Source: Infirmifilum sp. (GTDB lineage Archaea > Thermoproteota > Thermoprotei > Thermofilales > Thermofilaceae). Taken from it: DNA of 43,222 bases. The stretch is taken from the NCBI GenBank assembly GCA_041287245.1, contig JBEULP010000069.1, positions 1-43,222 on the forward strand, given 5' to 3'. A program made the position numbers and the translations under genes. Shown here piece after piece: positions 16,327 to 43,222 of the stretch (position 1 is its first letter; each line of letters begins with the position of its first letter). Below the pieces are notes generated by a model that was not told the DNA's origin, did not search any database, and saw only the letters and a program-made list of their open reading frames with translations.

Positions 16327-18453
16327 TCAGAAGAAAATGCTTTCCTCCTCCTCACGCTCCTCTTTTTCTCTTCTGCGGAAAAATTTCCTTAACTTCTCGA
16401 TAAGGCTTTCCTTTTCTTCCCCCTCACCGGCTCCGACTTCAAACATGTTTTTAAACACGGCCATGCTTTCATATCTTTTAAGGAGAAAAACCGAGATTAC
16501 CGTTAAGATAAGAGTCGCTAGGACAAAAACTACACTCTGGAACATTGAAAGCTTGAAGAAAGGCGTATCCACTAGGATATCAAGGAAAACGGGTATTTCC
16601 TTCTCATCCCCAGCGAGCCGTTGACTGTAAACATATGCACCATAATCAACTCTGAGAACTAAGTCCCCGTTAGATGCCACGGGCACCCCCTTCATAACCA
16701 CGCTCCCACTCTGATCCGTGGTGTCTGTTACGGAAAACACCGATTTGTTCCCAAGGTAGAGTGTAAGCGTAACCTTAGCGCCGACGACCGGGCGGTCAAA
16801 CCAGCTCTTAACAGTGACCTTGAATTCTGTTATAGGGGCTGTGAGGCTCAGGTTTCCTTTTGTAACGCTGAAAACCCTGTCGATTAAGATTACGCCACTA
16901 CATTTGAGCGTGAGATGGGCGTCTGTCTGGGGGAGTGCTTGAAAGAATGCCTGACCGTCTCTAAGCTTGGAGGAGAGCGCCAGGTTCCCAGCGGTTACGT
17001 TTACGTAGCAGCCGCTTAGGGGGTTACCCTTCTTATCGACTACAGTGATTGTAACATCGTATACGGGGATGTCGGCCTGTAGGGTTCCCGTGGCTCCAAC
17101 TTTAAGAAAAGTCGTATAGGATAATCCTGCGTAGCGAATCACAATCTTGAGATTACCTCCCACGGGAAGCACGCCCAGGGGGACCCTCTTGGTACTCTCG
17201 CCTCCTCCAGAGAGGCTTGGAGTTGTATAAAGGAGGATCTCTCTATCACTGTAAACGTAAAAGACGTCTACAGCTATGCCTTGAGGTAGAAAACTGGTGC
17301 CTTCAGGCTTAAAGACAATCGAGGATGGTACTACTGATAGCTGTAGGTCAAAATTATTGCTTGAGATGGATATCCTCCCCTCGTAGATTAAGCCTATGAT
17401 GGCGCTGGTCAACCGTATCGTATAATCTCCTGGGACTGTCTGGTAAATCGTGAGGACATGCGAGTTCCCAAGTGTATAGTTGAGCACAGCGCCTAGAGGG
17501 GTGGTTAAAGTGACGGCTAAGTCTTGGGAGATTAAAGGTTGATTGTTTATATCAAATAATCTGATAGTCAACATACTAATGATGTTTACACCTATCGTAT
17601 AGTTCCATGACCTTTCGTCGACAAGGATAGTTTTCTCCGCGATCTTTTTTCCATGTAGATAAACCTGCACGGTATAAGATCCAAGCAAAGCCCCCTGGAG
17701 AATTATTTTATCCTGTGTTTTGAAATCCACCGTTCCAAGCTTGGTCCCCAAGTAGTAGATTTCAGCTGCGCCATCGAAGCCTTGCACCGTCGAGCCGTCG
17801 GGCAGTCTAAAGTAAAAAACCAGGATGTTCCATACGGGAAGTTTTACGACTACAAGGCTAGTATCACATGAGACCAGCAAGCTATCAGAAACGGTAGCGT
17901 TTCCATAATTATTCCACTGGTAAACGACCTTATACTTCAGGGTGCCATAAGGCAGCCAAACTGAGACGCTATCACTAGCTCCAGAGTTGAACGGAGGATA
18001 ACCAGCAGGGGAGTTAATGGTTAACACGTAACCTGGGAGTCCCTGACCAGAAAGGAGGCCGACAGCTCTAAACGTAACTTTGGTTATGTTAGCCTTGATG
18101 TTAACCTGTGTCGAGTTATTTAAGGATAAGTTCCCAAAGTATACAGGGGTGCCAAGGTATAGGACTGTGATGTTGTAACTTCCTGTTGGCACCTGAATCG
18201 TGAAGACATCTTTTCCCTTGACTTCTTTTGTAAAGTTCAAACCCCTAAGCTGTACACTTAGGGGGTCTAGAAAGCTAGGGTCAATCTTGGCACCTTTACA
18301 TGAATAGACTGCTATCGTCACATTCACCTGCGTCACATTCGCAAAAGCATACTTCTCGGGTCTATGGGAGGGGGTTGAAGCGTTTAGCCTGCCTGCTACA
18401 CTAAGCAGGAAAACCAGGAAGAGCACCAGTAATAACAGTTTTCTCCCCATCAC
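16327..18453 (-). CDS. Secreted, membrane-anchored multi-beta-sandwich glycoprotein (carboxypeptidase-regulatory-like repeats)
   Basis: N-terminal signal peptide, repeated beta-rich units (VVDKKGNPLSG, PVVGAKV, TTDQSG), 15 N-X-S/T sequons by my count, C-terminal TM plus charged tail. Confidence 0.75.
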   Translation of the reverse strand: MMGRKLLLLVLFLVFLLSVAGRLNASTPSHRPEKYAFANVTQVNVTIAVYSCKGAKIDPSFLDPLSVQLRGLNFTKEVKGKDVFTIQVPTGSYNITVLYLGTPVYFGNLSLNNSTQVNIKANITKVTFRAVGLLSGQGLPGYVLTINSPAGYPPFNSGASDSVSVWLPYGTLKYKVVYQWNNYGNATVSDSLLVSCDTSLVVVKLPVWNILVFYFRLPDGSTVQGFDGAAEIYYLGTKLGTVDFKTQDKIILQGALLGSYTVQVYLHGKKIAEKTILVDERSWNYTIGVNIISMLTIRLFDINNQPLISQDLAVTLTTPLGAVLNYTLGNSHVLTIYQTVPGDYTIRLTSAIIGLIYEGRISISSNNFDLQLSVVPSSIVFKPEGTSFLPQGIAVDVFYVYSDREILLYTTPSLSGGGESTKRVPLGVLPVGGNLKIVIRYAGLSYTTFLKVGATGTLQADIPVYDVTITVVDKKGNPLSGCYVNVTAGNLALSSKLRDGQAFFQALPQTDAHLTLKCSGVILIDRVFSVTKGNLSLTAPITEFKVTVKSWFDRPVVGAKVTLTLYLGNKSVFSVTDTTDQSGSVVMKGVPVASNGDLVLRVDYGAYVYSQRLAGDEKEIPVFLDILVDTPFFKLSMFQSVVFVLATLILTVISVFLLKRYESMAVFKNMFEVGAGEGEEKESLIEKLRKFFRRREKEEREEEESIFF

Positions 18454-24800: not shown

Positions 24801-24916
24801 CAAAAGAGGTTATCTCACACCGAGGCTTTCGAGCCTCAAGGGCTAAACTATCCTAGCCTCGAGTGGAGCCTTTGAAAACATTTAAATCAGTCGCGTATGG
24901 AGGAAATTGGGGTCAT

Positions 24917-25120
24917 ATGAGTAAGGACGAGTCAAAAGGTAAAAAAGGCGGGAAAGGCGAGAAAGAGAGAAAGCCTACAGCAATGCCTGCTGCAGGCCTC
25001 TTAACATTCTACGAAGAGGACATAGGGGGTATAAAGGTAAGGCCCGAGATCGTAGTTGCTGGCACATTTCTTCTCGCATTAATAGTTATTATGGCGCATC
25101 TCGGAGTCTTCGGACCCTAG
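24917..25120 (+). CDS. secG: Preprotein translocase subunit Sec61beta
   Basis: Basic N-terminus, AGLLTFYEED..IKVRP, single C-terminal TM; start moved to ATG 24917. Confidence 0.92.
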   Translation: MSKDESKGKKGGKGEKERKPTAMPAAGLLTFYEEDIGGIKVRPEIVVAGTFLLALIVIMAHLGVFGP

Positions 25121-25216
25121 CGCCGCGCGCGAAAACTCAATCGTTTTTCTACCATCTCCCTGTTTGTTATTCTGGTATTATGCAAGGTCTCTGAAAAACC
25201 AGTAAGACTTTGACGT

Positions 25217-25975
25217 TTAATGCATGCGTGCCCGCTCAATGGCCTCAATTATCGAGCCCAGTTTCTCCCTTATGTTGTCCACTTCTTCTACGATTGTTCC
25301 TGTGACAATGACGTCCGCGCCAGCCTTTACCAGTTCTCCAGCAACTTGGGGTTCACGTATACCCCCACCGACAACGATGGGGAGTGAGACTGTTCTCCGA
25401 ACCATCCTAACCACGTTGGGAGGTACTGGCTCTGCGCCTGAGCCCCCTTCAAGATACACGAAACTGAACCCCATGTATTCGGCGGCGAGTGCATAGGCGG
25501 CGACAACATCCGGCTTTTCGAAGGGGAGTGGTCTAGTGTAGCTTACCAGTGAGACTGCCCCTCCCGAGCCTAGTATTATATATCCTAGTGAGATTGCCTC
25601 TAACCCATATCTCTTAACAATAGGAGCGCCTTGCATCTGTGCCCCGGTTATGAAATAAGGATTTTGAGAGTTAAGAACTGACATAAACCATACGGCATCT
25701 GCGTAGCGGCTTAGAGCCGAGGGGGTTCCGGGGAAAAGGATTACTGGAACGTTTACGGTTTTCTTTATGGCGAGTACAACCTCATCTGTCATGCCCTCTG
25801 ATACTCCTATGCTCCCACCAACCATTATTGCAGACGTTCCTGCCTCAACGGCCTCGCGGCTAATTCTGGAAGCCATTTCAGAGGAGGTTTTTTCTGGATC
25901 CAGCAGGGTCATGTGGATTGCTCCTTTCTCTTGAATTCGCTGCAAGATGTACTCTTTAACTCTCATCCTCGGCAT
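25217..25975 (-). CDS. Geranylgeranylglyceryl phosphate synthase
   Basis: TLLDPEK, IMVGGS, VILFPG, SVLNS, YLEGGSG, VGGGIR, IVTGT. Confidence 0.94.
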   Translation of the reverse strand: MPRMRVKEYILQRIQEKGAIHMTLLDPEKTSSEMASRISREAVEAGTSAIMVGGSIGVSEGMTDEVVLAIKKTVNVPVILFPGTPSALSRYADAVWFMSVLNSQNPYFITGAQMQGAPIVKRYGLEAISLGYIILGSGGAVSLVSYTRPLPFEKPDVVAAYALAAEYMGFSFVYLEGGSGAEPVPPNVVRMVRRTVSLPIVVGGGIREPQVAGELVKAGADVIVTGTIVEEVDNIREKLGSIIEAIERARMH

Positions 25976-32096: not shown

Positions 32097-32207
32097 GGGC
32101 CCGTGGCGCAGTCAGGAAGCGCGGCGGCCACGCTCAAGAAGCGCCGCAGTCCTAAGATTAGACTCGAAGAGAGCCGTAGGTCCCGGGTTCAACTCCCGGC
32201 GGGCCCG
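32097..32207 (+). tRNA. tRNA-Arg(CCT) with two introns (32/33: 32130-32149, 20 nt; 37/38: 32155-32171, 17 nt)
   Basis: Acceptor GGGCCCG/CGGGCCC-G, D stem GCGC/GCGC, anticodon stem GCGGC/GCCGT, T arm CCGGG-TTCAACT-CCCGG; spliced loop CT-CCT-AA; 74-nt mature body. Confidence 0.9.
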
Positions 32208-32264
32208 CTCATTCTGCCAACCTTTCGCGCGAGATTTTTATACAGTATTTTTATAGGGTTCAAC

Positions 32265-33092
32265 GTGGGAAAAATAGAGGCTTATTTGCGGCTTGCAAGA
32301 ATAGAGCATGGCTTAATGACGGGTATCGCTGCCGTGGCTGGTTTCCTTGCTGTGAAATGGTGTTTCTGTGACAATCTTTGGGTTGTCTTCGTAAGTTCGG
32401 TTCTTGCAGAGGTCTCCTTGTTCGCTTTTAACGATATTTTCAACCTGGAGGAGGATAGGATAAACAGCCCTGACAGACCTCTGGTGCGAGGAGAGCTTAC
32501 GAGAAAAGAGGCGCTTGCCTTCGCTCTTGCATCAGCCGCCGCTTCGATTATTCTTGCTTTCCAGCTCGGCACTTACCCGCTTGTTGTGCTATTCGCGGCG
32601 ATCGTACTTGGAAACCTCTATAACGCTTACCTGAAGAGGCTATCCATCCTTGGGAATCTAACGGTGGCAGGGTTGACCGCAACTAGTTTCCTCTACGGTT
32701 CGCTGTCCACCGGCGTTGCGGTTCCTGAGAAGGTTGTTTTATTTTTCATCATAGCGTTTTTGGCGAACGTTGGTAGAGAAATCTCGAAGGGGATAAGGGA
32801 TCTGGAGGGCGACTCTAAGGCGGGGATCTGTACGCTTGCATGCGAGGTTGGTGTGGAAGAAGCAGGCCTTATCGCCGCGGTCTTCATGTCCCTAGCGGTT
32901 GTGCTCAGTATGGCGGCTGTGAATTATTTCACATTTAAAGTTTTATTTATCTCTCTCATCTCGGTCACAGATGTTATATTTATTCACGCTGCTTACCAGA
33001 TGATTACAAAACCAAGTCATGCTGCTGGCTGGGTTAGAAAGACAACCCTTATAGGAATGCTCCTCGCTCTTATTTCCTTCATCACGCCGTGA
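32265..33092 (+). CDS. UbiA-family prenyltransferase, probable digeranylgeranylglyceryl phosphate synthase
   Basis: NDIFNLEEDRINSPDRPLVRG, REISKGIRDLEGD, multiple TMs; start moved to GTG 32265 because the longer ORF overlaps the tRNA. Confidence 0.88.
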   Translation: MGKIEAYLRLARIEHGLMTGIAAVAGFLAVKWCFCDNLWVVFVSSVLAEVSLFAFNDIFNLEEDRINSPDRPLVRGELTRKEALAFALASAAASIILAFQLGTYPLVVLFAAIVLGNLYNAYLKRLSILGNLTVAGLTATSFLYGSLSTGVAVPEKVVLFFIIAFLANVGREISKGIRDLEGDSKAGICTLACEVGVEEAGLIAAVFMSLAVVLSMAAVNYFTFKVLFISLISVTDVIFIHAAYQMITKPSHAAGWVRKTTLIGMLLALISFITP

Positions 33093-33136: not shown

Positions 33137-33490
33137 ATGCAGAGAAAGTGGCTACGCGGCTTTGAAAGGATTTTCTCAGACAATAACATCGCTGTTGCAC
33201 TGCTCTTAGTCTCGATAGCCATAGCGGCTGGCATAGTGTTCGTCCTGGCTGAAAGGCCCCCCTTCTCGCTAGGGACATATTTTGTATACCCTGGAACCTC
33301 CTCTCAGACTACGAGCGAGTTTCTCATATTATTCTTTATATATGCACTCTCTGTAGCAGGCTTAATTCTCATCTATGAGTCTCCCAAGTACAGATCCCGC
33401 CCAAGCCTTGCGTCTACATTTCTAGTCTCAGGAGTGGCAGTTGTTGTTATATCGGTAATACTCTTATTCCTCGTCTACGGGATGAAATGA
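33137..33490 (+). CDS. Three-TM protein resembling OSTC/DC2 (OST3/OST6 family) oligosaccharyltransferase accessory subunit
   Basis: AGIVFVLAERPP..F...Q...E..GLILI..S..G..VVIS..MK pattern; see findings. Confidence 0.6.
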   Translation: MQRKWLRGFERIFSDNNIAVALLLVSIAIAAGIVFVLAERPPFSLGTYFVYPGTSSQTTSEFLILFFIYALSVAGLILIYESPKYRSRPSLASTFLVSGVAVVVISVILLFLVYGMK

Positions 33491-33567
33491 TCCCCCCACT
33501 TTTAGAAGTAGTTGTTCTCCTCTCACAGCCTTCTTTACCCCCAGAGGCTTGAACGGTGAAGCCTGGG

Positions 33568-34152
33568 ATGAGTACAAAAAGCCTAGTGCGCGTTCTCCGC
33601 CGCCCCGGGATCCATGTAGTCTACGGACCTCCAGGGTCGTTTAAGACAACCCTTTCTTTAAGGGTAGGCTTTTCAGCTTCCCGCTCAAAAATTCTTTATG
33701 TAGGCCTTGCCCGGCACTCAGTTCTGCATCCCCGGGAAAGCGAGAAGCTACTTGTAAAACCTCTTCCAAATCTAAAAAGCGAGTTTCAGTTTCTCCTAGA
33801 ATTAGAGCTATTATCTGATGATATAGGCTTCCTCATATACGACGGGTTTTCATCCTATTTTTTACCCTTGAGGTTTTACATGCGGGAGTCCTCCATCGCG
33901 AAGATCCAATTATTCGCAGCGTCGAAGCTTTATGCCTTCTCCCAGCTGAGAAACTTACCGGTGGTAATAACTACACAGGAGGTCTCCGGCAGGAAACCCT
34001 TGGCATACAAGGTTCTTAGAGGGTTCGCGTTAGATTTCACAAGGGTCGAAAGGACGGATCATGTAGTTGTATACCATATATGCGACGAGAGCCTCCAGGA
34101 GAAACTTAGCGGGGTTGTTGAGGAAGAGGAATTATCCCTTGAAAAAGGCTAA
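33568..34152 (+). CDS. RecA-superfamily ATPase, RadB/aRadC-like (no N-terminal domain)
   Basis: VYGPPGSFKT Walker A, FLIYDG Walker B, PVVITTQ. Confidence 0.7.
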   Translation: MSTKSLVRVLRRPGIHVVYGPPGSFKTTLSLRVGFSASRSKILYVGLARHSVLHPRESEKLLVKPLPNLKSEFQFLLELELLSDDIGFLIYDGFSSYFLPLRFYMRESSIAKIQLFAASKLYAFSQLRNLPVVITTQEVSGRKPLAYKVLRGFALDFTRVERTDHVVVYHICDESLQEKLSGVVEEEELSLEKG

Positions 34153-34183
34153 ATAGCCGTTCTATACTCCCTTTTCAGAGGTT

Positions 34184-34729
34184 ATGCAAGCTATACATGT
34201 CTCCACGGAGTGCCGGGAAAAAATGGGTACACTGTCAGAGCTGCTTAAAAGGATAAAGGGGAACTATGAAATAGACCCCGTGAACCCCGAGCTCATTGTT
34301 CCTTGCGAGTTCCTGGAGGAGGGGGTTGGCGAGGCCCTGCTTAAGGCCTTTCTAGCCTCTCCCCCGTGGAAGAATGGGAAGATATCCCTCGCATTAGACC
34401 CGGGCGAGGTAAAAACAGGGCTTGTATTGGCGGTTGACGATGAAGTTATACATGCAGCGTCTACCACTCCCGAAGCCGTTAAGAAGATACTCTCTCTGCT
34501 CTCCAAGTACTATACAAACCTTTCAGTGTTTTCCGGCGACACGCGAGTAGCTCGCAGGCTCTTAGAGGACAAGCCTAGTAACGTCACGGTGGTTTATCTC
34601 GACGAGGCGAAACTGCCGGGTGTGCACATAGACGTGAAAACCAGGGATGATGCTTTAGACGCGTTAAGGATATACTATAGGGGGCGCACGGTAACGCTTC
34701 AAAGGGAGTTTTCCAAGTCTAGCCTTTAA
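34184..34729 (+). CDS. Hypothetical protein with YqgF/RuvC-like RNase H-fold motifs
   Basis: LALDPGEVKTGLVLA, YLDE, DDALDALRI. Confidence 0.55.
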   Translation: MQAIHVSTECREKMGTLSELLKRIKGNYEIDPVNPELIVPCEFLEEGVGEALLKAFLASPPWKNGKISLALDPGEVKTGLVLAVDDEVIHAASTTPEAVKKILSLLSKYYTNLSVFSGDTRVARRLLEDKPSNVTVVYLDEAKLPGVHIDVKTRDDALDALRIYYRGRTVTLQREFSKSSL

Positions 34730-34889
34730 CCCTCCTCTTCCTCACCTCGACGTCCTGGGGCACCCAGTCAATCCTGGTGCCGCATTTAGGGCATTGTCCT
34801 CCAACCGACGCGTAGATCTTGTAGAGGTTTGGTATCTTGTTTCCCTTATAGAAAACATAGCCACACTTCTTGCAGACGACAGTTATCAT
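34719..34889 (-). CDS. Small Zn-ribbon protein (56 aa)
   Basis: CKKCG..CPKCG; ATG 34889 lies about 35 nt downstream of a minus-strand GAAAAGCTTAAAA. Confidence 0.75.
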   Translation of the reverse strand: MITVVCKKCGYVFYKGNKIPNLYKIYASVGGQCPKCGTRIDWVPQDVEVRKRRVKG

Positions 34890-35099
34890 TGCGCGGGTTC
34901 CGTATACTATAGGGAATGCCAGTTTTAAGCTTTTCAGTTTCCTGGCGGCTTTCCCACCTCCTATCAAGCTTTAACCGCCCTTTAGGGCTCGCGTCGTCTC
35001 GACACCGTGCCGTTAGGCTCCCTCCGTGCGAATATTAGAGAAGCGACCTGACGCGGTAAAACATTGTTTCAAGCTCAAAAATAAATACCTGCCCGTGAT

Positions 35100-37301
35100 G
35101 TGCCTACTGTGTCTGAAAGGAGTAATAAGGCCCTGGGCAAGGTCTCTACAACACTATCGAAGGTTTTCGAAGCTGCAGGCGATACCCGGTTCGTGGTAGG
35201 CGCTATCCTTGTCATAGCTTTCACGATAACTCTCCTGGCGCGTTTAACCCCTCTTCACTGGGGCACCTATCTAAACGAGTTCGACCCGTTCTACGAATAC
35301 TACCTATCCGTCAAGATGCTTGAAAACGGCAATGGGAGCTTCTGGGGAGGCGTTGCGTGGTGGTATCACTGGTGGCTCGAAAACCCCAAGCCGCGTGACA
35401 CTCTGTTCTGGGCTCCGAGCGGGCGCGACTTGCGAGGCTCAAGCCAGCCTGGAGCAGCCTTCTTCACCGTCGCCGTTTACGAACTGCTAAAAGACCTAGG
35501 CTTCAACGTCGACCTCTACTTTATCCACGGAATAAGTGTTCCGATAGGCGCGGCTATAGCAGTCTTCACGGCTTACCTTTTAGGCAGGGAGTTGAAGGAC
35601 TCCAGGGTCGGCGTCCTCTCGGCAGTCCTAATAAGCCTCAGCTGGGCATACATGTACAGAACCAACTACGGTGCTAAACACGAGGGATTCGCAATACCCT
35701 TCATGCTCTTCGGCTTCTACCTCTTCCTGGTGGCTTACAGGAGGAAGTCTCTGTCTCTCTCGGCGCTAGCGGGCATCTCTTTCGGCATGGTGGTTCTTTC
35801 CTGGGGCGCTTATCTGTATCCATGGAATTTCATCGCCTTGTTATCCCTTGTATGGCTATTATTCCACCCTGAAGACAGAACCCTAGCCAAGGTCTACATT
35901 GTGACTAACATCGTTACAACCTTCTTTGTAGCCACTACGCCAAGGTTTGGGCCAAACGCTGCTTTCCTATCGGCGGTGGGGTTCCTCCCGCTAGCTACGA
36001 CCCTCTACGCAGCATTCCTTCTAGTCGGCCTTTCCAGGATAAAGACGATGAGCTCCTCTAAGCTCAAGAAGATCGGTATCAGCGTCCTAGGAGTCCTCGC
36101 CGTACTTTTTGCCGCAGCATATTTCACAGGCGTGACCCAACTTATCTCGGGCAGGATACTCGCAGTGGTCCTGCCGACGATAAGGGAGCCTGGGGTCACA
36201 ACTGTTGCTGAGCACGCCGTCCCGTCATGGAACCAGCTCTTCGACGACTTCCAATCAACGATAATCTTCGGGGTCTTCGCCACCTACCTTTATGCTAGAA
36301 GGCTGAGGACAGACATAAAGGCGGCTTTCGCATCGCTATACTTCGCAACATCGCTCTACTTCTCCTCCTCTATCGTGAGGCTACTGCTCCTGCTCTCGCC
36401 GGCCATAGCCGTCGTATCCTCCCTCGGGCTAGTCGAGCTGTTTGACAGGGCCTTGGACCTCTCATCACCCTCCCCTCTACGCAAGAGGGAAAGGTCCGTC
36501 TCACCTGCCCTCATCGCCCTGGTCATGGTTATTCTTCTGCTAGTATTCTCTCCCTCGATACTGGGGTCGCAGGTCCCTGTATACTCGCACCAGCCGGCAC
36601 TCATCCTTACATCCTCCATCCCCATGATCGACTACCACTACCAGTACATGGACTGGATCTCGACGCTCGAGTGGATTAAGTTGAACGTCCCGCGGGACGC
36701 TACTATTGCAACTTGGTGGGACTATGGCTACTGGATAAGCGTGAATACGGACCGCAAAACCACCTGCGACAACGCGACAATAGACACGAAGCAGATTCAA
36801 AGGATAGCTAAGGCTTTTATGTCAGACGAGGATACAGCCTTAAGGATATTCAAGGAGCTCAACGTCACATACGTCGTCGTCTTCGAGCCCCTGCAGGCGA
36901 TACAGCTTACGACAGGGCTAAACGTGTACTTCTCCATGATACACCCTGCCCTTGGAGGAGACATGGCTAAAAGCCCACAGATGCTCAAGTGGATCGGACT
37001 GGATGCTGGAAACTACATTTATGGCTACAACAACGGCACCTACGCGTACCTAGATCTAGGAAACAACCAGCGAATATACCTGCTCGTCCCCGCTGCGACG
37101 CCGCAAGCCTTAAACTCTACCCTCTACAGGATGATTTATACGCGCAACTACAAGCAGCAGCTATTCATATTCGACTCCTTCCTCGGGCAACTCCAAGGCT
37201 ACACAGGCCCACACTACGTCTTAGCGCCGCTAAAACACTTCGAGCTGGTATACGTCTCAGAGCCCAACGGTTGGGTAAAAGTATTCAAGGTTACTGGCTA
37301 G
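35100..37301 (+). CDS. aglB: Oligosaccharyltransferase catalytic subunit AglB/STT3
   Basis: NEFDPFY, TTVAEH (SVSE-like), many TMs, WWDYGYWI, DNAT. Confidence 0.96.
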   Translation: MPTVSERSNKALGKVSTTLSKVFEAAGDTRFVVGAILVIAFTITLLARLTPLHWGTYLNEFDPFYEYYLSVKMLENGNGSFWGGVAWWYHWWLENPKPRDTLFWAPSGRDLRGSSQPGAAFFTVAVYELLKDLGFNVDLYFIHGISVPIGAAIAVFTAYLLGRELKDSRVGVLSAVLISLSWAYMYRTNYGAKHEGFAIPFMLFGFYLFLVAYRRKSLSLSALAGISFGMVVLSWGAYLYPWNFIALLSLVWLLFHPEDRTLAKVYIVTNIVTTFFVATTPRFGPNAAFLSAVGFLPLATTLYAAFLLVGLSRIKTMSSSKLKKIGISVLGVLAVLFAAAYFTGVTQLISGRILAVVLPTIREPGVTTVAEHAVPSWNQLFDDFQSTIIFGVFATYLYARRLRTDIKAAFASLYFATSLYFSSSIVRLLLLLSPAIAVVSSLGLVELFDRALDLSSPSPLRKRERSVSPALIALVMVILLLVFSPSILGSQVPVYSHQPALILTSSIPMIDYHYQYMDWISTLEWIKLNVPRDATIATWWDYGYWISVNTDRKTTCDNATIDTKQIQRIAKAFMSDEDTALRIFKELNVTYVVVFEPLQAIQLTTGLNVYFSMIHPALGGDMAKSPQMLKWIGLDAGNYIYGYNNGTYAYLDLGNNQRIYLLVPAATPQALNSTLYRMIYTRNYKQQLFIFDSFLGQLQGYTGPHYVLAPLKHFELVYVSEPNGWVKVFKVTG

Positions 37302-41201: not shown

Positions 41202-42299
41202 ATGGAGATACCGAGGCTCTTCAAAGACTACTATCACAAAAATTTCGTGGCGCCGCCGAGCAGCGTTGAGAAGCGGGAGTTCGCCTTCACCCTCTTCAAC
41301 ACAGAGGGGATGTTCAGGCACATCTCCTTCAGAAACGCTGAGCAGCTAAACAGGCACCTCAGGGAGAAAGCCCCCCAGCACGCCTACTACTCGACAGCCT
41401 ACTACCGCGACCCCTCAGCCCCCGAGATGGACGACAAGGGATGGGAGGGCGCAGACCTAGTCTTCGACATAGACGTCGACCACATAGACACCCCCTGCAA
41501 GCCCCTACACGACTCCTGGAAGTGCAGGAGCTGCGGCGCGGAAGGCTGGGGCTTCATACTCAAGTGTCCAAGCTGCGGAAGCGACAGCATCGAGAGGCAG
41601 ACATGGGTCTGCGACCAGTGCATAAGCGTCGCACGGGAGGAGACGCTGAAGCTCATAGACATACTAGAGGAGGACTTCGGCCTCACCCGGGCCGAGATGA
41701 GCGTAGCCTTCTCAGGGCACAGAGGGTTCCATGTACACGTCGAAAACAAGGTCGTCGCGGAGCTTGACCAGGAGGCAAGGCGGGAGATCGCGGACTACGT
41801 CCGGGGCCTCGGCATAGACCCCGACCTCTACATGGAGAGGGTGGAGAGGCTCTACAGGTACAAGTACTCCCAGGGGGATCCGGGGTGGCGGGGGCGCATA
41901 GCCAGGCTTCTAGGCCTAAGGGCACAGGCCGAAGCCCCCATGGCAAGGGAAGAGCTACGCAGGCTAATACTTGAGTGCGTCGAGGAGGCGAGGGCGAACA
42001 TCGACGAGAAGGTGACCATGGACGTCAAGAGGCTCATACGGCTCCCCGGAACCCTCCACGGCAAGACAGGCCTCAAAGTACTCCCGATGACTGTCCAGGA
42101 GCTCGAAGCCACGGACGCCCGGGGCATACTCGAGGAGTCGATAGCCCTCCCAGACGAGCCCGTACGGGTCGAGCTGGACAGGTGGCCCCGCAAGATACTG
42201 GACCACACGATAACCCTCCGCTCAGGGGAGCTCCAGCTGCCACTATACCTCGCGGTGTACATAGCCCTGAACTCCAAGAGGGCTAGGATCCACGCCTAA
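41202..42299 (+). CDS. priS: DNA primase small (catalytic) subunit
   Basis: REFAF, RH, YYSTAYY, DLVFDIDVD, FSGHRGFH, DEKVT.D..RLIRLPGTLHGKTG; Cys-rich Zn insert. Confidence 0.96.
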   Translation: MEIPRLFKDYYHKNFVAPPSSVEKREFAFTLFNTEGMFRHISFRNAEQLNRHLREKAPQHAYYSTAYYRDPSAPEMDDKGWEGADLVFDIDVDHIDTPCKPLHDSWKCRSCGAEGWGFILKCPSCGSDSIERQTWVCDQCISVAREETLKLIDILEEDFGLTRAEMSVAFSGHRGFHVHVENKVVAELDQEARREIADYVRGLGIDPDLYMERVERLYRYKYSQGDPGWRGRIARLLGLRAQAEAPMAREELRRLILECVEEARANIDEKVTMDVKRLIRLPGTLHGKTGLKVLPMTVQELEATDARGILEESIALPDEPVRVELDRWPRKILDHTITLRSGELQLPLYLAVYIALNSKRARIHA

Positions 42300-42405
42300 C
42301 CCACCTCGAAGCGCCACCCCCCTAGAGGGATGAGGGAAGCATTTTCAACTACTGTCGAACCAATAATAGTTAAAAGCCGGATTCTAATTCACAGAAAACA
42401 CTGCC

Positions 42406-42454
42406 TATAAATACCCTGCCCGGCTCAAAACCCCCGAACCCCGAAAAGGGGTGA
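42406..42454 (+). promoter_or_regulatory. TATA box and strong SD of the terminal surface-protein gene
   Basis: TATAAATA at 42406-42413; GGGGTGA at 42448-42454. Confidence 0.6.
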
Positions 42455-42463
42455 AGCATGCAT

Positions 42464-43222
42464 ATGAGTAGTAAATACATATTAGGTATACTCGCACTAG
42501 CAATAATAGCACTAGCACTCGCACACACAGCACAAGCAGCCCCAATCACAAAGGTCAACTTCACTCTAAACCTGCCCGACGGCACCCCCTTCGCAAACCA
42601 GCAAGTCATAATAGTAGTCTTCAACGAGACTGGCAACTGTATACTCGCCCACGCAATAGGCACCACGGACAGCAATGGCTTCATAAAGGGAACAATCGAC
42701 CAGCCTGGAGGAGCAATAAATCCTGCCAACAGCGGCACTTATTATAACATCTCTGTCTTCTGGCAGGCCTACGGCAGAACCTTCCTAGCTAACACTACAG
42801 TTCATATAGATAGTAACACATTCAACAACCTATTTAATCAGCCCACCATAACAGTGAATTTGGGCCTCCTCTGGAAGCTCAAGTTTCAAGCTATGACCAA
42901 TGTGGCAGGGCAAGACGTACCCCTCTACTTCAAGGACCCCGAGTCGGGTAGGGAGGACATAGCCTACTTCGACGTTTGGTTCTACAGCAAGTCCGGAGCC
43001 CCAGTCTTCTCAAGCCCCGCCGACAGCACCGCCACATCCACTAAATCCTTCCTTGCTCCAACTGTAGAGGTAAACATCAAGCCGACTACCAGCCCAACAT
43101 GCTACCACATCGAGAAAGCCTGGAACGTAACACTCTACAAGGAGGTCAGCTGGCTCCTCAACACAAACCCCGGCCAGCCCCTCAAAGTCCTCGTAGGCAG
43201 GGAAAACGTAATCATATACGCG
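42464..43222 (+). CDS. Secreted surface glycoprotein (S-layer-like), runs off the 3' end; absent from the ORF track; alternative start ATG 42458
   Basis: My translation is open to the window end: MSSKYILGILALAIIALALAHTAQA signal peptide, then APITKVNFTLNLPDGTPFANQQV..GTTDSNG..; sequons NFT, NET, NIS, NTT, NVT. Confidence 0.85.
   Translation, partial: MSSKYILGILALAIIALALAHTAQAAPITKVNFTLNLPDGTPFANQQVIIVVFNETGNCILAHAIGTTDSNGFIKGTIDQPGGAINPANSGTYYNISVFWQAYGRTFLANTTVHIDSNTFNNLFNQPTITVNLGLLWKLKFQAMTNVAGQDVPLYFKDPESGREDIAYFDVWFYSKSGAPVFSSPADSTATSTKSFLAPTVEVNIKPTTSPTCYHIEKAWNVTLYKEVSWLLNTNPGQPLKVLVGRENVIIYA

What the first reader, a model, noticed from the sequence alone, without database searches (positions are those of the whole stretch)
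33137..37301. DC2/OSTC-like accessory subunit near an STT3-like aglB: possible multi-subunit archaeal oligosaccharyltransferase
Seen: the 117-aa ORF (33137-33490) has three TMs and reads AGIVFVLAERPP..FVYPGTSSQTTSEFL..AGLILIYES..LVSGVAVVVIS..YGMK. From memory, human OSTC/DC2 reads GGIIYDVIVEPP..FLAYRVNGQYIMEGL..LGFIILDRS..FIGFVCVLLS..MRMK, so the motifs are colinear over most of the length. AglB 1.6 kb away has STT3-like EFDP, TVAEH and WWDYG/DNAT motifs. Sec61beta and two sequon-rich surface proteins are also in the window. Knowledge: archaeal OST is usually described as AglB alone; DC2 bridges STT3A to Sec61 in mammals; OST3/6-like genes have been noted in Asgard and some TACK genomes, but I know of no functional study. 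Inference: a eukaryote-like, translocon-coupled OST complex in this lineage.
Basis: partly seen in the sequence, partly recalled or inferred. Interest (0 to 1): 0.8.

Follow-up and report, generated by a model that had tools for sequence, protein, structure and literature searches.

The report
Archaeal DC2-like helper of glycosylation enzyme
This small three-helix membrane protein of a Thermofilum-family archaeon is a true relative of the human glycosylation helper DC2/OSTC and is predicted to sit on the nearby enzyme AglB, likely together with a ribophorin I relative found elsewhere in the genome; such helpers were already noted in related archaea, and the link to the protein-export channel is untested.

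Summary
Observation confirmed. ORF 33137-33490 passes the Pfam OST3_OST6 cut-off. Archaeal-only profiles hit human OSTC best (E 1.4e-7 to 7.6e-15), and the 11 best fold matches are all OSTC/MAGT1/Ost3/Ost6. It has no thioredoxin domain. A complex with the genome's single AglB scores 0.80 against a best control of 0.00, possibly by likeness to solved structures. New here: a ribophorin I missed by Pfam lies on contig C49. The two accessory genes co-occur: both in 186, neither in 175 of 401 phylum genomes. aglB is within about 10 kb in 43 of 80 loci. Sec61beta proximity is not conserved (4 of 80), no other OST subunit was found, and SecY contact was not tested. The family is not special to this lineage (214 of 401 genomes). 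OST1 and OST3/6 in TACK and Asgard archaea are already in print (PMC11417166), and this scan found the same thing before on other DNA (8 notes). Verdict: new member of a known kind; a likely three-subunit OST, testable in cultured Thermofilaceae.

The parts
33137..33490 (+). DC2/OSTC-type OST3/OST6-family protein, 117 aa: N-terminal helix, three TM helices, conserved G32, Q57, E61, G75 and terminal K117; no thioredoxin domain
35100..37301 (+). aglB/STT3, the only WWDYG-type OST of the genome; likely start 35109 (730 aa); best PDB hit human STT3A
   Evidence: predicted partner
34719..34967 (-). small zinc-ribbon gene, conserved neighbour usually lying between the OSTC-like gene and aglB (46 of 80 loci); no evidence that it belongs to the complex
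33556..34152 (+). RadB-like P-loop gene, conserved downstream neighbour (context only)
32103..33092 (+). UbiA-family prenyltransferase (DGGGP-synthase-like), upstream neighbour mainly in this family (context only)
24863..25120 (+). Sec61beta/SecG, 8 kb upstream beside GGGP synthase; linkage to the OSTC-like gene not conserved (4 of 80 loci)
16327..18453 (-). 708-aa Ig-like surface protein with signal-like N-terminus, C-terminal TM and 15 sequons; likely AglB substrate, not part of the complex
42458..43222 (+). surface protein running off the window (255+ aa, 5 sequons); likely AglB substrate

Best explanation
The 117-aa protein is a DC2/OSTC-type member of the OST3/OST6 family that is predicted to pack its three membrane helices against the last helices of AglB and likely forms, with the ribophorin I homologue of contig C49, a three-subunit oligosaccharyltransferase whose likely job is to hold AglB beside SecY and the ribosome so that surface proteins are glycosylated as they are exported. 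Shown by calls: homology and fold of all three proteins, one copy of each in the genome, conserved gene neighbourhood with aglB, co-occurrence with ribophorin I. Predicted: the AglB interface (AglB residues 356-401, 409-421, 443-453, 462-482, which I read as TM10, TM11, the end of TM12 and TM13). Inferred: that ribophorin I joins the same complex, and that the complex docks on SecY and the ribosome. Odds: homology 0.98, binds AglB 0.85, three-subunit complex 0.7 (the confidence given), translocon coupling about 0.45.
For: Homology: (an 18-row profile of genome-derived sequences of the window's own class still hits OSTC at E 1.4e-7). Interface: ipSAE 0.80/0.79/0.80, best of 3 controls 0.00; the mark was reached by 116 of 157 solved complexes and 2 of 215 mismatched pairs; runs agree in at least 94% of contacts, partner pLDDT at least 82. 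The review PMC7226087 places Ost3 on Stt3 TMH10, 11 and 13. Terminal K117 is kept in 106 of 112 homologues, aligns to DC2 K142, whose mutation lowers DC2 activity (PMC5674889), and lies in the predicted interface. Neighbourhood: aglB within about 10 kb in 43 of 80 OSTC-centred loci, 22 of 39 families, and the OSTC-like gene in 24 of 80 aglB-centred loci, 19 of 40 full-length ones; my estimate by chance is about 1% (20 kb of 1.6 Mb). Ribophorin I: C49:163765-165372(-), 535 aa, signal-like helix, beta-sandwich region, one TM, helical tail; hhalign probability 100, E 1.6e-39 to archaeal Pfam-positive ribophorins; Foldseek top 8 all RPN1/Ost1, E 1e-21 to 3e-14, next 4e-6; Atlas. Co-occurrence in 401 genomes: both 186, neither 175, OSTC only 26, RPN1 only 14. 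The two accessory subunits found are the two that contact Sec61 (DC2) and the ribosome (ribophorin I tail) in OST-A (PMC10859629); the Asgard MK-D1 OST1 tail binds eukaryotic ribosomes (PMC11417166). AglB's best PDB hit is STT3A, E 4e-49, against STT3B 1.6e-31.
Against: The complex score may come from memory of solved STT3-DC2/Ost3 structures, and my own alignments were used, so the calibration holds only roughly. Other genes are as frequent neighbours as aglB: RecA/RadB-family cluster 64 loci, zinc ribbon 46, CarS-containing cluster 43, so the linkage may be old synteny. Ribophorin I is near the OSTC-like gene in only 1 of 80 loci. In 11 of 27 named OSTC-positive genomes, among them all 7 titled Nitrososphaeraceae-type, no ribophorin I was detected, and family f13 is 4/4 against 0/4. 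Genomes are kin, so the co-occurrence rests on few independent losses. AglB persists in 29 of 31 OSTC-negative genomes tested, so neither helper is generally needed. For translocon coupling: the loop is 10 residues shorter than in human DC2 and the model shows no strands there, whereas a DC2 beta-hairpin contacts the Sec61 plug (PMC12804085); KCP2 and TRAP beta/gamma were not found; Sec61beta linkage is not conserved. The fold does not separate DC2 from MAGT1 (Z 11.9 against 12.6). OST4, which recruits Ost3/6 in yeast, was not found.
Confidence: 0.7

Rival explanations
1. The protein binds AglB but does not touch SecY: it stabilises the C-terminal helices of AglB or shapes the lipid-linked-donor groove, like the membrane part of Ost3/Ost6/MAGT1, and glycosylation is not tied to the channel.
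For: Fold tie between MAGT1 and OSTC (Z 12.6 and 11.9); short loop, G32-Q57 span 26 residues, range 22-38 in 112 homologues; Ost3 TMH2 helps form the donor groove (PMC7226087); no KCP2 or TRAP beta/gamma found; Sec61beta near in 4 of 80 loci.
Against: Sequence profiles prefer OSTC to MAGT1 by 13 to 25 bits; co-occurrence with ribophorin I, whose helical tail is kept; central loop deletions of DC2 are only partly inactivating (PMC5674889; I could not see the figure that maps them).
Confidence: 0.35
2. AglB and the OSTC-like protein form a two-subunit enzyme; the ribophorin I homologue acts apart, for example as a ribosome receptor or surface-protein chaperone.
For: The ribophorin gene is on another contig and near the OSTC-like gene in 1 of 80 loci, in 0 of 80 aglB-centred loci; 26 of 401 genomes are OSTC-only; its eukaryotic membrane partner OST5/TMEM258 was not found. 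No AglB-ribophorin model was run.
Against: The two genes share presence and absence in 361 of 401 genomes and in 29 of the 30 families listed (weak hits set aside); the fold matches only RPN1/Ost1 strongly.
Confidence: 0.15
3. The protein is an OST3/6 homologue that has another partner or task (lipid synthesis with CarS or the UbiA enzyme, ion transport as once ascribed to MAGT1); the aglB neighbourhood is inherited gene order.
For: A CarS-containing cluster and a RadB-like gene are as frequent neighbours as aglB; 17 of 39 families show no aglB within 10 kb; many AglB-positive genomes lack the gene.
Against: Every close structural relative is an STT3-bound subunit; the AglB complex scores 0.80 against 0.00; presence tracks a second OST subunit.
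Confidence: 0.08

Closest known systems
Human OSTC/DC2, STT3A-specific subunit of OST-A (PDB 6s7o_H, 8b6l_J, 8pn9_H)
   Same: Three TM helices without a thioredoxin domain; colinear motifs and terminal lysine; best profile hit (E 4.8e-13; 7.6e-15); TM-score about 0.7; predicted site on the catalytic subunit.
   Different: About 20% identity; 117 against 149 aa; loop 10 residues shorter; shorter N-terminus; KCP2 not found; Sec61 contact untested.
Ost3/Ost6 (yeast), MAGT1/TUSC3 (OST-B)
   Same: Same Pfam family and membrane fold (Z 12.6, 10.0, 9.5; E 3.1e-9 for MAGT1).
   Different: No thioredoxin domain, no first TM, no CxxC in 112 homologues, so no oxidoreductase role.
Asgard OST3/OST6, OST1 and STT3 set (MK-D1; PMC11417166, PMC10307638)
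   Same: Same three-gene inventory as listed for MK-D1; the two Asgard OST3/OST6 rows I saw in the Eme et al. table are short three-helix-type proteins; both Promethearchaeia genomes searched hit my two profiles.
   Different: Here in Thermofilaceae; TRAP beta/gamma and Ost5 not found; ribophorin I too diverged for Pfam.
Single-subunit archaeal AglB (Archaeoglobus, Pyrococcus structures)
   Same: Same catalytic family and WWD motif.
   Different: This AglB is far closer to STT3A (E 4e-49) than to the archaeal domains in the PDB (E about 1e-5) and has two candidate accessory subunits.

Membership tests
OST3/OST6 family (PF04756) | Profile match above the curated cut-off | tested here: met
   28.8 bits against 27, E 1.1e-6; 82 of 112 homologues match at E<=0.001
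OST3/OST6 family (PF04756) | Three-helix membrane fold of the family | tested here: met
   Foldseek ranks 1-11 all family members, TM about 0.6-0.76, though none reaches E<=0.001; VIA Z 12.6-9.5 over 101-108 residues, rmsd 1.6-2.5, next 7.4
DC2/OSTC | Three TMs with no N-terminal thioredoxin domain | tested here: met
   117 aa, profile positions 176-288 only; open frames of the 150 listed hits are at most 188 aa
DC2/OSTC | Closer to OSTC than to MAGT1/Ost3/Ost6 | tested here: inconclusive
   Profiles favour OSTC; structure is tied; no tree was built
DC2/OSTC | C-terminal FMRMK-type motif needed for assembly | tested here: inconclusive
   Lysine kept in 106 of 112; the phenylalanine position is L/I/V (PMC5674889)
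DC2/OSTC | Binds the catalytic STT3 subunit | tested here: inconclusive
   Prediction passes, 0.80 against 0.00, but a like complex is solved; no experiment
DC2/OSTC | Bridges OST to Sec61 | not tested
Ost3/Ost6/MAGT1/TUSC3 oxidoreductase type | Luminal thioredoxin domain with CxxC and four TMs | tested here: not met
   No such domain; no CxxC in 112 homologues
STT3/AglB | STT3 profile, EFDP, xVxEH, WWDYG and DxxK motifs | tested here: met
   PF02516 E 2.7e-26; E57-P60, E368, W536-D538, D618/K621 conserved
STT3/AglB | Metal-binding DxE motif; double sequon of TACK/eukaryotic STT3 | tested here: not met
   KHE replaces DxE, shared across the family alignment; second sequon absent. Lineage variants, not a sign of decay
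Ribophorin I/OST1 (C49 gene) | Pfam PF04597 match | tested here: not met
   No match; 0 of 14 family genomes
Ribophorin I/OST1 (C49 gene) | Signal peptide, luminal beta-sandwich domains, one TM, cytoplasmic helical bundle; profile and fold homology | tested here: met
   Model pLDDT 90.7; Foldseek top 8 RPN1/Ost1; hhalign E 1.6e-39 to alignment A5, which hits human RPN1 at 4.8e-32, MK-D1 OST1 at 2.7e-19, yeast Ost1 at 4.3e-17
Eukaryotic 6-8-subunit OST | OST48/WBP1, RPN2/SWP1, DAD1/OST2, OST4, OST5 | tested here: inconclusive
   None found by Pfam in a genome rated 99.99% complete, but Pfam also missed ribophorin I, and the RPN2 search rang in no control genome
OST-A/Sec61/TRAP translocon supercomplex | Physical complex of OST with channel and ribosome; co-translational glycosylation | not testable with these tools
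   Needs pull-down, cross-linking or cryo-EM

The most novel reading that the evidence does not exclude
A ribosome- and SecY-docked three-subunit OST (AglB + DC2 + ribophorin I), the working core of mammalian OST-A, was present in the common ancestor of TACK and Asgard archaea and survives in cultured Thermofilaceae; the single-subunit AglB of Thermoproteus-type crenarchaea is a secondary reduction, and the thioredoxin-bearing Ost3/6 type is the derived form.
Probability: 0.4. Interest if true: 0.7.

Novelty: new member of a known kind. Interest (0 to 1): 0.4.

Why it matters
Reviews still describe the archaeal OST as a single subunit (PMC10859629, PMC7226087). A DC2-like and a ribophorin-like gene that are kept or lost together in about half of the sampled Thermoproteota suggest that the multi-subunit enzyme is older than Asgard archaea. 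The gene families themselves are already reported for TACK in one sentence of PMC11417166, so the surprise is modest. The practical value is a test system: NCBI names homologues of the OSTC-like protein and AglB in Thermofilum pendens (consecutive accessions ABL78042.1 and ABL78043.1) and of all three proteins in Infirmifilum lucidum, where the two helpers are labelled hypothetical. These are cultured thermophiles (own knowledge), easier to handle than Asgard enrichments, so the question of when co-translational glycosylation arose can be put to a pull-down.

Tried and rejected
Single-sequence PDB search: no OSTC hit. Pfam PF04756 across the phylum (318 of 401) was discarded as a count because most matches are to its thioredoxin part. 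A locus search with alignment A1 could not run for lack of a conserved stretch. Search for longer or fused forms (302-2000 aa): none among 7998 candidates scored, weak evidence. Ost5: own-genome hit E 0.02 inside a 300-aa frame, 0 of 111 genomes over the cut-off, and a two-sequence Asgard Ost5 profile gave only E about 2. Ost4: nothing here nor in 5 named genomes including two Asgard ones, so that search is insensitive. A conserved 52-aa single-TM protein on C61 was tested as Ost4 and rejected: no Ost4 hit in PDB or among the Pfam families shown. C8:2-244 hit the ribophorin profile at E 7e-10 but only on the last helical 60 positions, at a contig edge; not counted. The Thermofilales-only ribophorin profile finds mostly coiled coils in the PDB, MK-D1 OST1 at rank 4, E 7e-4. 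Conservation of the AglB interface in OSTC-positive against negative genomes was inconclusive, with only 11 positions scored. Sigma-70 promoter scan: chance level and the wrong promoter type. No RNA holder was listed. NCBIfam has no model for the ORF or the ribophorin. Euryarchaeota and DPANN were not surveyed.


Full report
Source. The window is contig C94 of a 1.81-Mb, 119-contig genome rated 99.99% complete, 5.05% contaminated. Close homologues are named Infirmifilum and Thermofilum, so it is a Thermofilaceae archaeon. One homologue at 68% identity already carries the NCBI name 'OST3/OST6 family protein'.

Observation. The ORF, its motifs, aglB 1610 bases downstream, Sec61beta and the two sequon-rich surface proteins are all as described. 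aglB is the only ORF over 300 aa with a WWDYG-type motif in the genome.

What the ORF is. Pfam OST3_OST6 matches above cut-off, on the membrane part only. A search of 1.84 billion representatives gave 29 relatives of 91-160 aa. A profile of 34 of these and the close hits finds only three PDB sequences: human OSTC (E 4.8e-13), a second OSTC chain (2e-12) and MAGT1 (3.4e-5). A 112-row profile gives 7.6e-15 and 3.1e-9. Because some rows were unnamed, I repeated this with 18 rows read from genomes of the window's own class: OSTC 1.4e-7, MAGT1 0.002, so the link is not circular. The model (pLDDT 96) matches only OSTC/MAGT1/Ost3/Ost6 in Foldseek ranks 1-11, none at E<=0.001, and in the top four rows of a wide search, Z 12.6-9.5 against 7.4 next; the tool warns that Z under about 13 can be unspecific for helical bundles, so the sequence profiles carry the weight. 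G32, Q57, E61, G75 and K117 are kept in 112, 108, 104, 111 and 106 of 112 rows; no row has CxxC. The architecture is that of DC2, not of Ost3/6. Whether it is a DC2 orthologue or sits at the base of both eukaryotic types was not resolved.

AglB. Its best PDB hit is human STT3A (E 4e-49), then yeast Stt3 (3e-34) and STT3B (1.6e-31); archaeal domains reach about 1e-5. It departs from the eukaryotic pattern in two places: KHE instead of DxE (75 of 101 rows, mostly this order, but also 4 rows of other families) and loss of the second sequon after WWDYG, which most other rows keep.

Predicted complex. AglB with the ORF scored 0.80, 0.79, 0.80; best of three controls 0.00. The mark was reached by 116 of 157 solved complexes and 2 of 215 mismatched pairs; runs agree in at least 94% of contacts; partner pLDDT at least 82. 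The AglB side maps, by the STT3A alignment and my recalled helix numbering, to TM10, TM11 and TM13, the helices named for Ost3 in PMC7226087. A like complex is solved, so the pass shows likeness and not that this copy binds.

Neighbourhood. Of 80 loci chosen from the 150 listed hits to span 39 families, 43 have aglB within about 10 kb (35 of 61 full-length loci; 22 of 39 families), mostly head to head with a zinc-ribbon gene between. Seen from the other side, 24 of 80 aglB-centred named loci hold the gene. Against over-reading: RecA/RadB-family, CarS-containing and zinc-ribbon clusters are neighbours in 64, 43 and 46 loci, and Sec61beta in only 4 of 80, three of them in this genus.

A second accessory subunit. 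Pfam finds no ribophorin I here but does in 69 of 401 phylum genomes. A profile of 29 of those picks out C49:163765-165372(-), 535 aa, E 4.3e-5, with hydrophobic segments at 3 and 351, 12 sequons, just upstream of EF-2. It has relatives in 26 of 36 genomes of the order, 18 of 19 in the family, which score down to 6e-45 on that profile. Profile-profile probability is 100 over 492 columns; the Atlas puts it with Ribophorin_I-containing clusters (0.95) and eukaryotic RPN1 models (TM 0.51-0.52); its model matches the eight RPN1/Ost1 chains first. Other subunits were not found, but these are Pfam-level searches that also missed ribophorin I.

Distribution. The OSTC profile hits 214 of 401 sampled genomes, all but two with one copy; family f1 14/14; 0/23, 0/63, 0/18, 0/13, 0/5, 0/18 in f6, f12, f14, f22, f27, f28 and one weak hit in f7. 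The ribophorin profile hits 219. After dropping 2 weak OSTC rows (E>1e-4) and 19 weak ribophorin rows (E 9e-8 to 9e-6; like hits lie mostly on the coiled-coil tail), the table is both 186, OSTC only 26, ribophorin only 14, neither 175. The deeper profile, run on 40 handles, found no convincing hit in the negative families and turned 2 of 6 retested ribophorin-only genomes positive. AglB is present in 29 of 31 OSTC-negative genomes tested. Among 35 of the 80 named genomes, 27 have the OSTC-like gene and 16 of them also ribophorin I (Bathyarchaeia, Methanomethylicales, Culexarchaeum, Brockarchaeota, Thermofilum, Nitrosopumilales MAGs, two Promethearchaeia); 7 titled Thermoproteus, Thermoproteaceae, Thermoproteales, Thermocladium or Vulcanisaeta and one unclassified archaeon have neither, while one other record titled Thermoproteales has both; 7 Nitrososphaeraceae-type genomes have OSTC without a detected ribophorin. 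Many are incomplete MAGs, and kin are not independent.

How it most likely works. Shown: three homologues, one copy each. Predicted: the small protein on AglB's C-terminal helices, with K117 in the interface. Inferred: ribophorin I joins, giving a three-subunit OST (0.7). Inferred further: docking on SecY and the ribosome (about 0.45). The best argument for the last step is that the two helpers kept are the two that touch Sec61 and the ribosome in OST-A (PMC10859629), although they belong to different eukaryotic subcomplexes. The best argument against is the short loop without the DC2 hairpin and the missing KCP2 and TRAP.

What is known. PMC11417166 (read: part 1 of 6 and passages; its Table S1 and figures not seen) states that OST1 and OST3/6 occur in eukaryotes, TACK and Asgard archaea and builds AF2 models of the MK-D1 OST. 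PMC10307638 (passages and supplement rows) lists Ost1 and Ost3 as previously reported in Asgard and adds five subunits. PMC8993221 and PMC4973528 (passages) note Asgard homologues of unknown function and an earlier failure to find any. PMC5674889 (passages and section 9), PMC7226087, PMC10859629 and PMC12804085 (passages) supplied the eukaryotic facts. Zaremba-Niedzwiedzka 2017 was not read. Five searches (listings only for the papers not named above) showed no binding test of an archaeal OST3/6 protein with AglB and no mention of a Thermofilaceae ribophorin I; the library lacks most subscription papers. Eight earlier notes of this scan report the same family on other DNA, one in a Thermofilum-family genome and one with a ribophorin I in Bathyarchaeia; none came up for a Thermofilaceae ribophorin. 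My reading was set before I saw them.

Verdict. Real, correctly recognised, and a new member of a known kind. The added value is the hidden ribophorin I, the paired presence and absence of the two helpers, and a cultured lineage in which to test the complex. Interest 0.4.

Noticed in passing
G000:C49:163765-165372 (-), locus L142:7766-9373, outside the window: Diverged ribophorin I/OST1 homologue, 535 aa, 12 sequons, missed by Pfam and NCBIfam, directly upstream of EF-2 (EF-2 adjacent in 8 of 26 order loci, all of this genus).
   Followed up: yes
window 35109-37301, AglB residues 190-192: The metal-binding DxE motif reads KHE in Thermofilales AglB and in a few other families, DDE in most others; a lysine in place of a metal ligand may change metal or donor preference.
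   Followed up: partly
window 35109-37301, AglB residues 554-560: The second sequon of the double-sequon motif is lost in this family's AglB but kept in most other Thermoproteota rows.
   Followed up: partly
G000:C61:71048-71206 (-), locus L319:4049-4207: 52-aa single-TM protein with a basic tail, conserved as a small gene across Thermofilales (invariant L6, E31, Y32, W35, R36, R39), beside a ThiI-like gene in this genus; not Ost4 by the tests run; family unknown.
   Followed up: partly
window 24863-25975 and 32103-33092; loci L032-L111: Membrane-lipid genes cluster around the OST genes: GGGP synthase and a DGGGP-synthase-like UbiA gene here, a CarS-containing cluster in 43 of 80 related loci.
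   Followed up: partly
window 34719-34967 (-): Small zinc-ribbon gene of unknown function next to the OSTC-like gene or aglB in 46 of 80 loci.
   Followed up: no
G000:C8:2-244 (+), locus L143: Contig-edge fragment whose last 60 residues match the C-terminal helical hairpin of the archaeal ribophorin profile (E 7e-10), followed by two secreted-looking ORFs; may be a shared small domain or contamination.
   Followed up: no
loci L265, L281, L288, L296-L298, L302 (Nitrososphaeraceae-type records): OSTC-like gene present but ribophorin I not detected; either lost or too diverged.
   Followed up: no
window 41202-43222: The last 2 kb (primase small subunit, surface protein) look richer in G+C at third positions than the rest of the window, judged by eye from overlapping shadow ORFs; not measured.
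   Followed up: no
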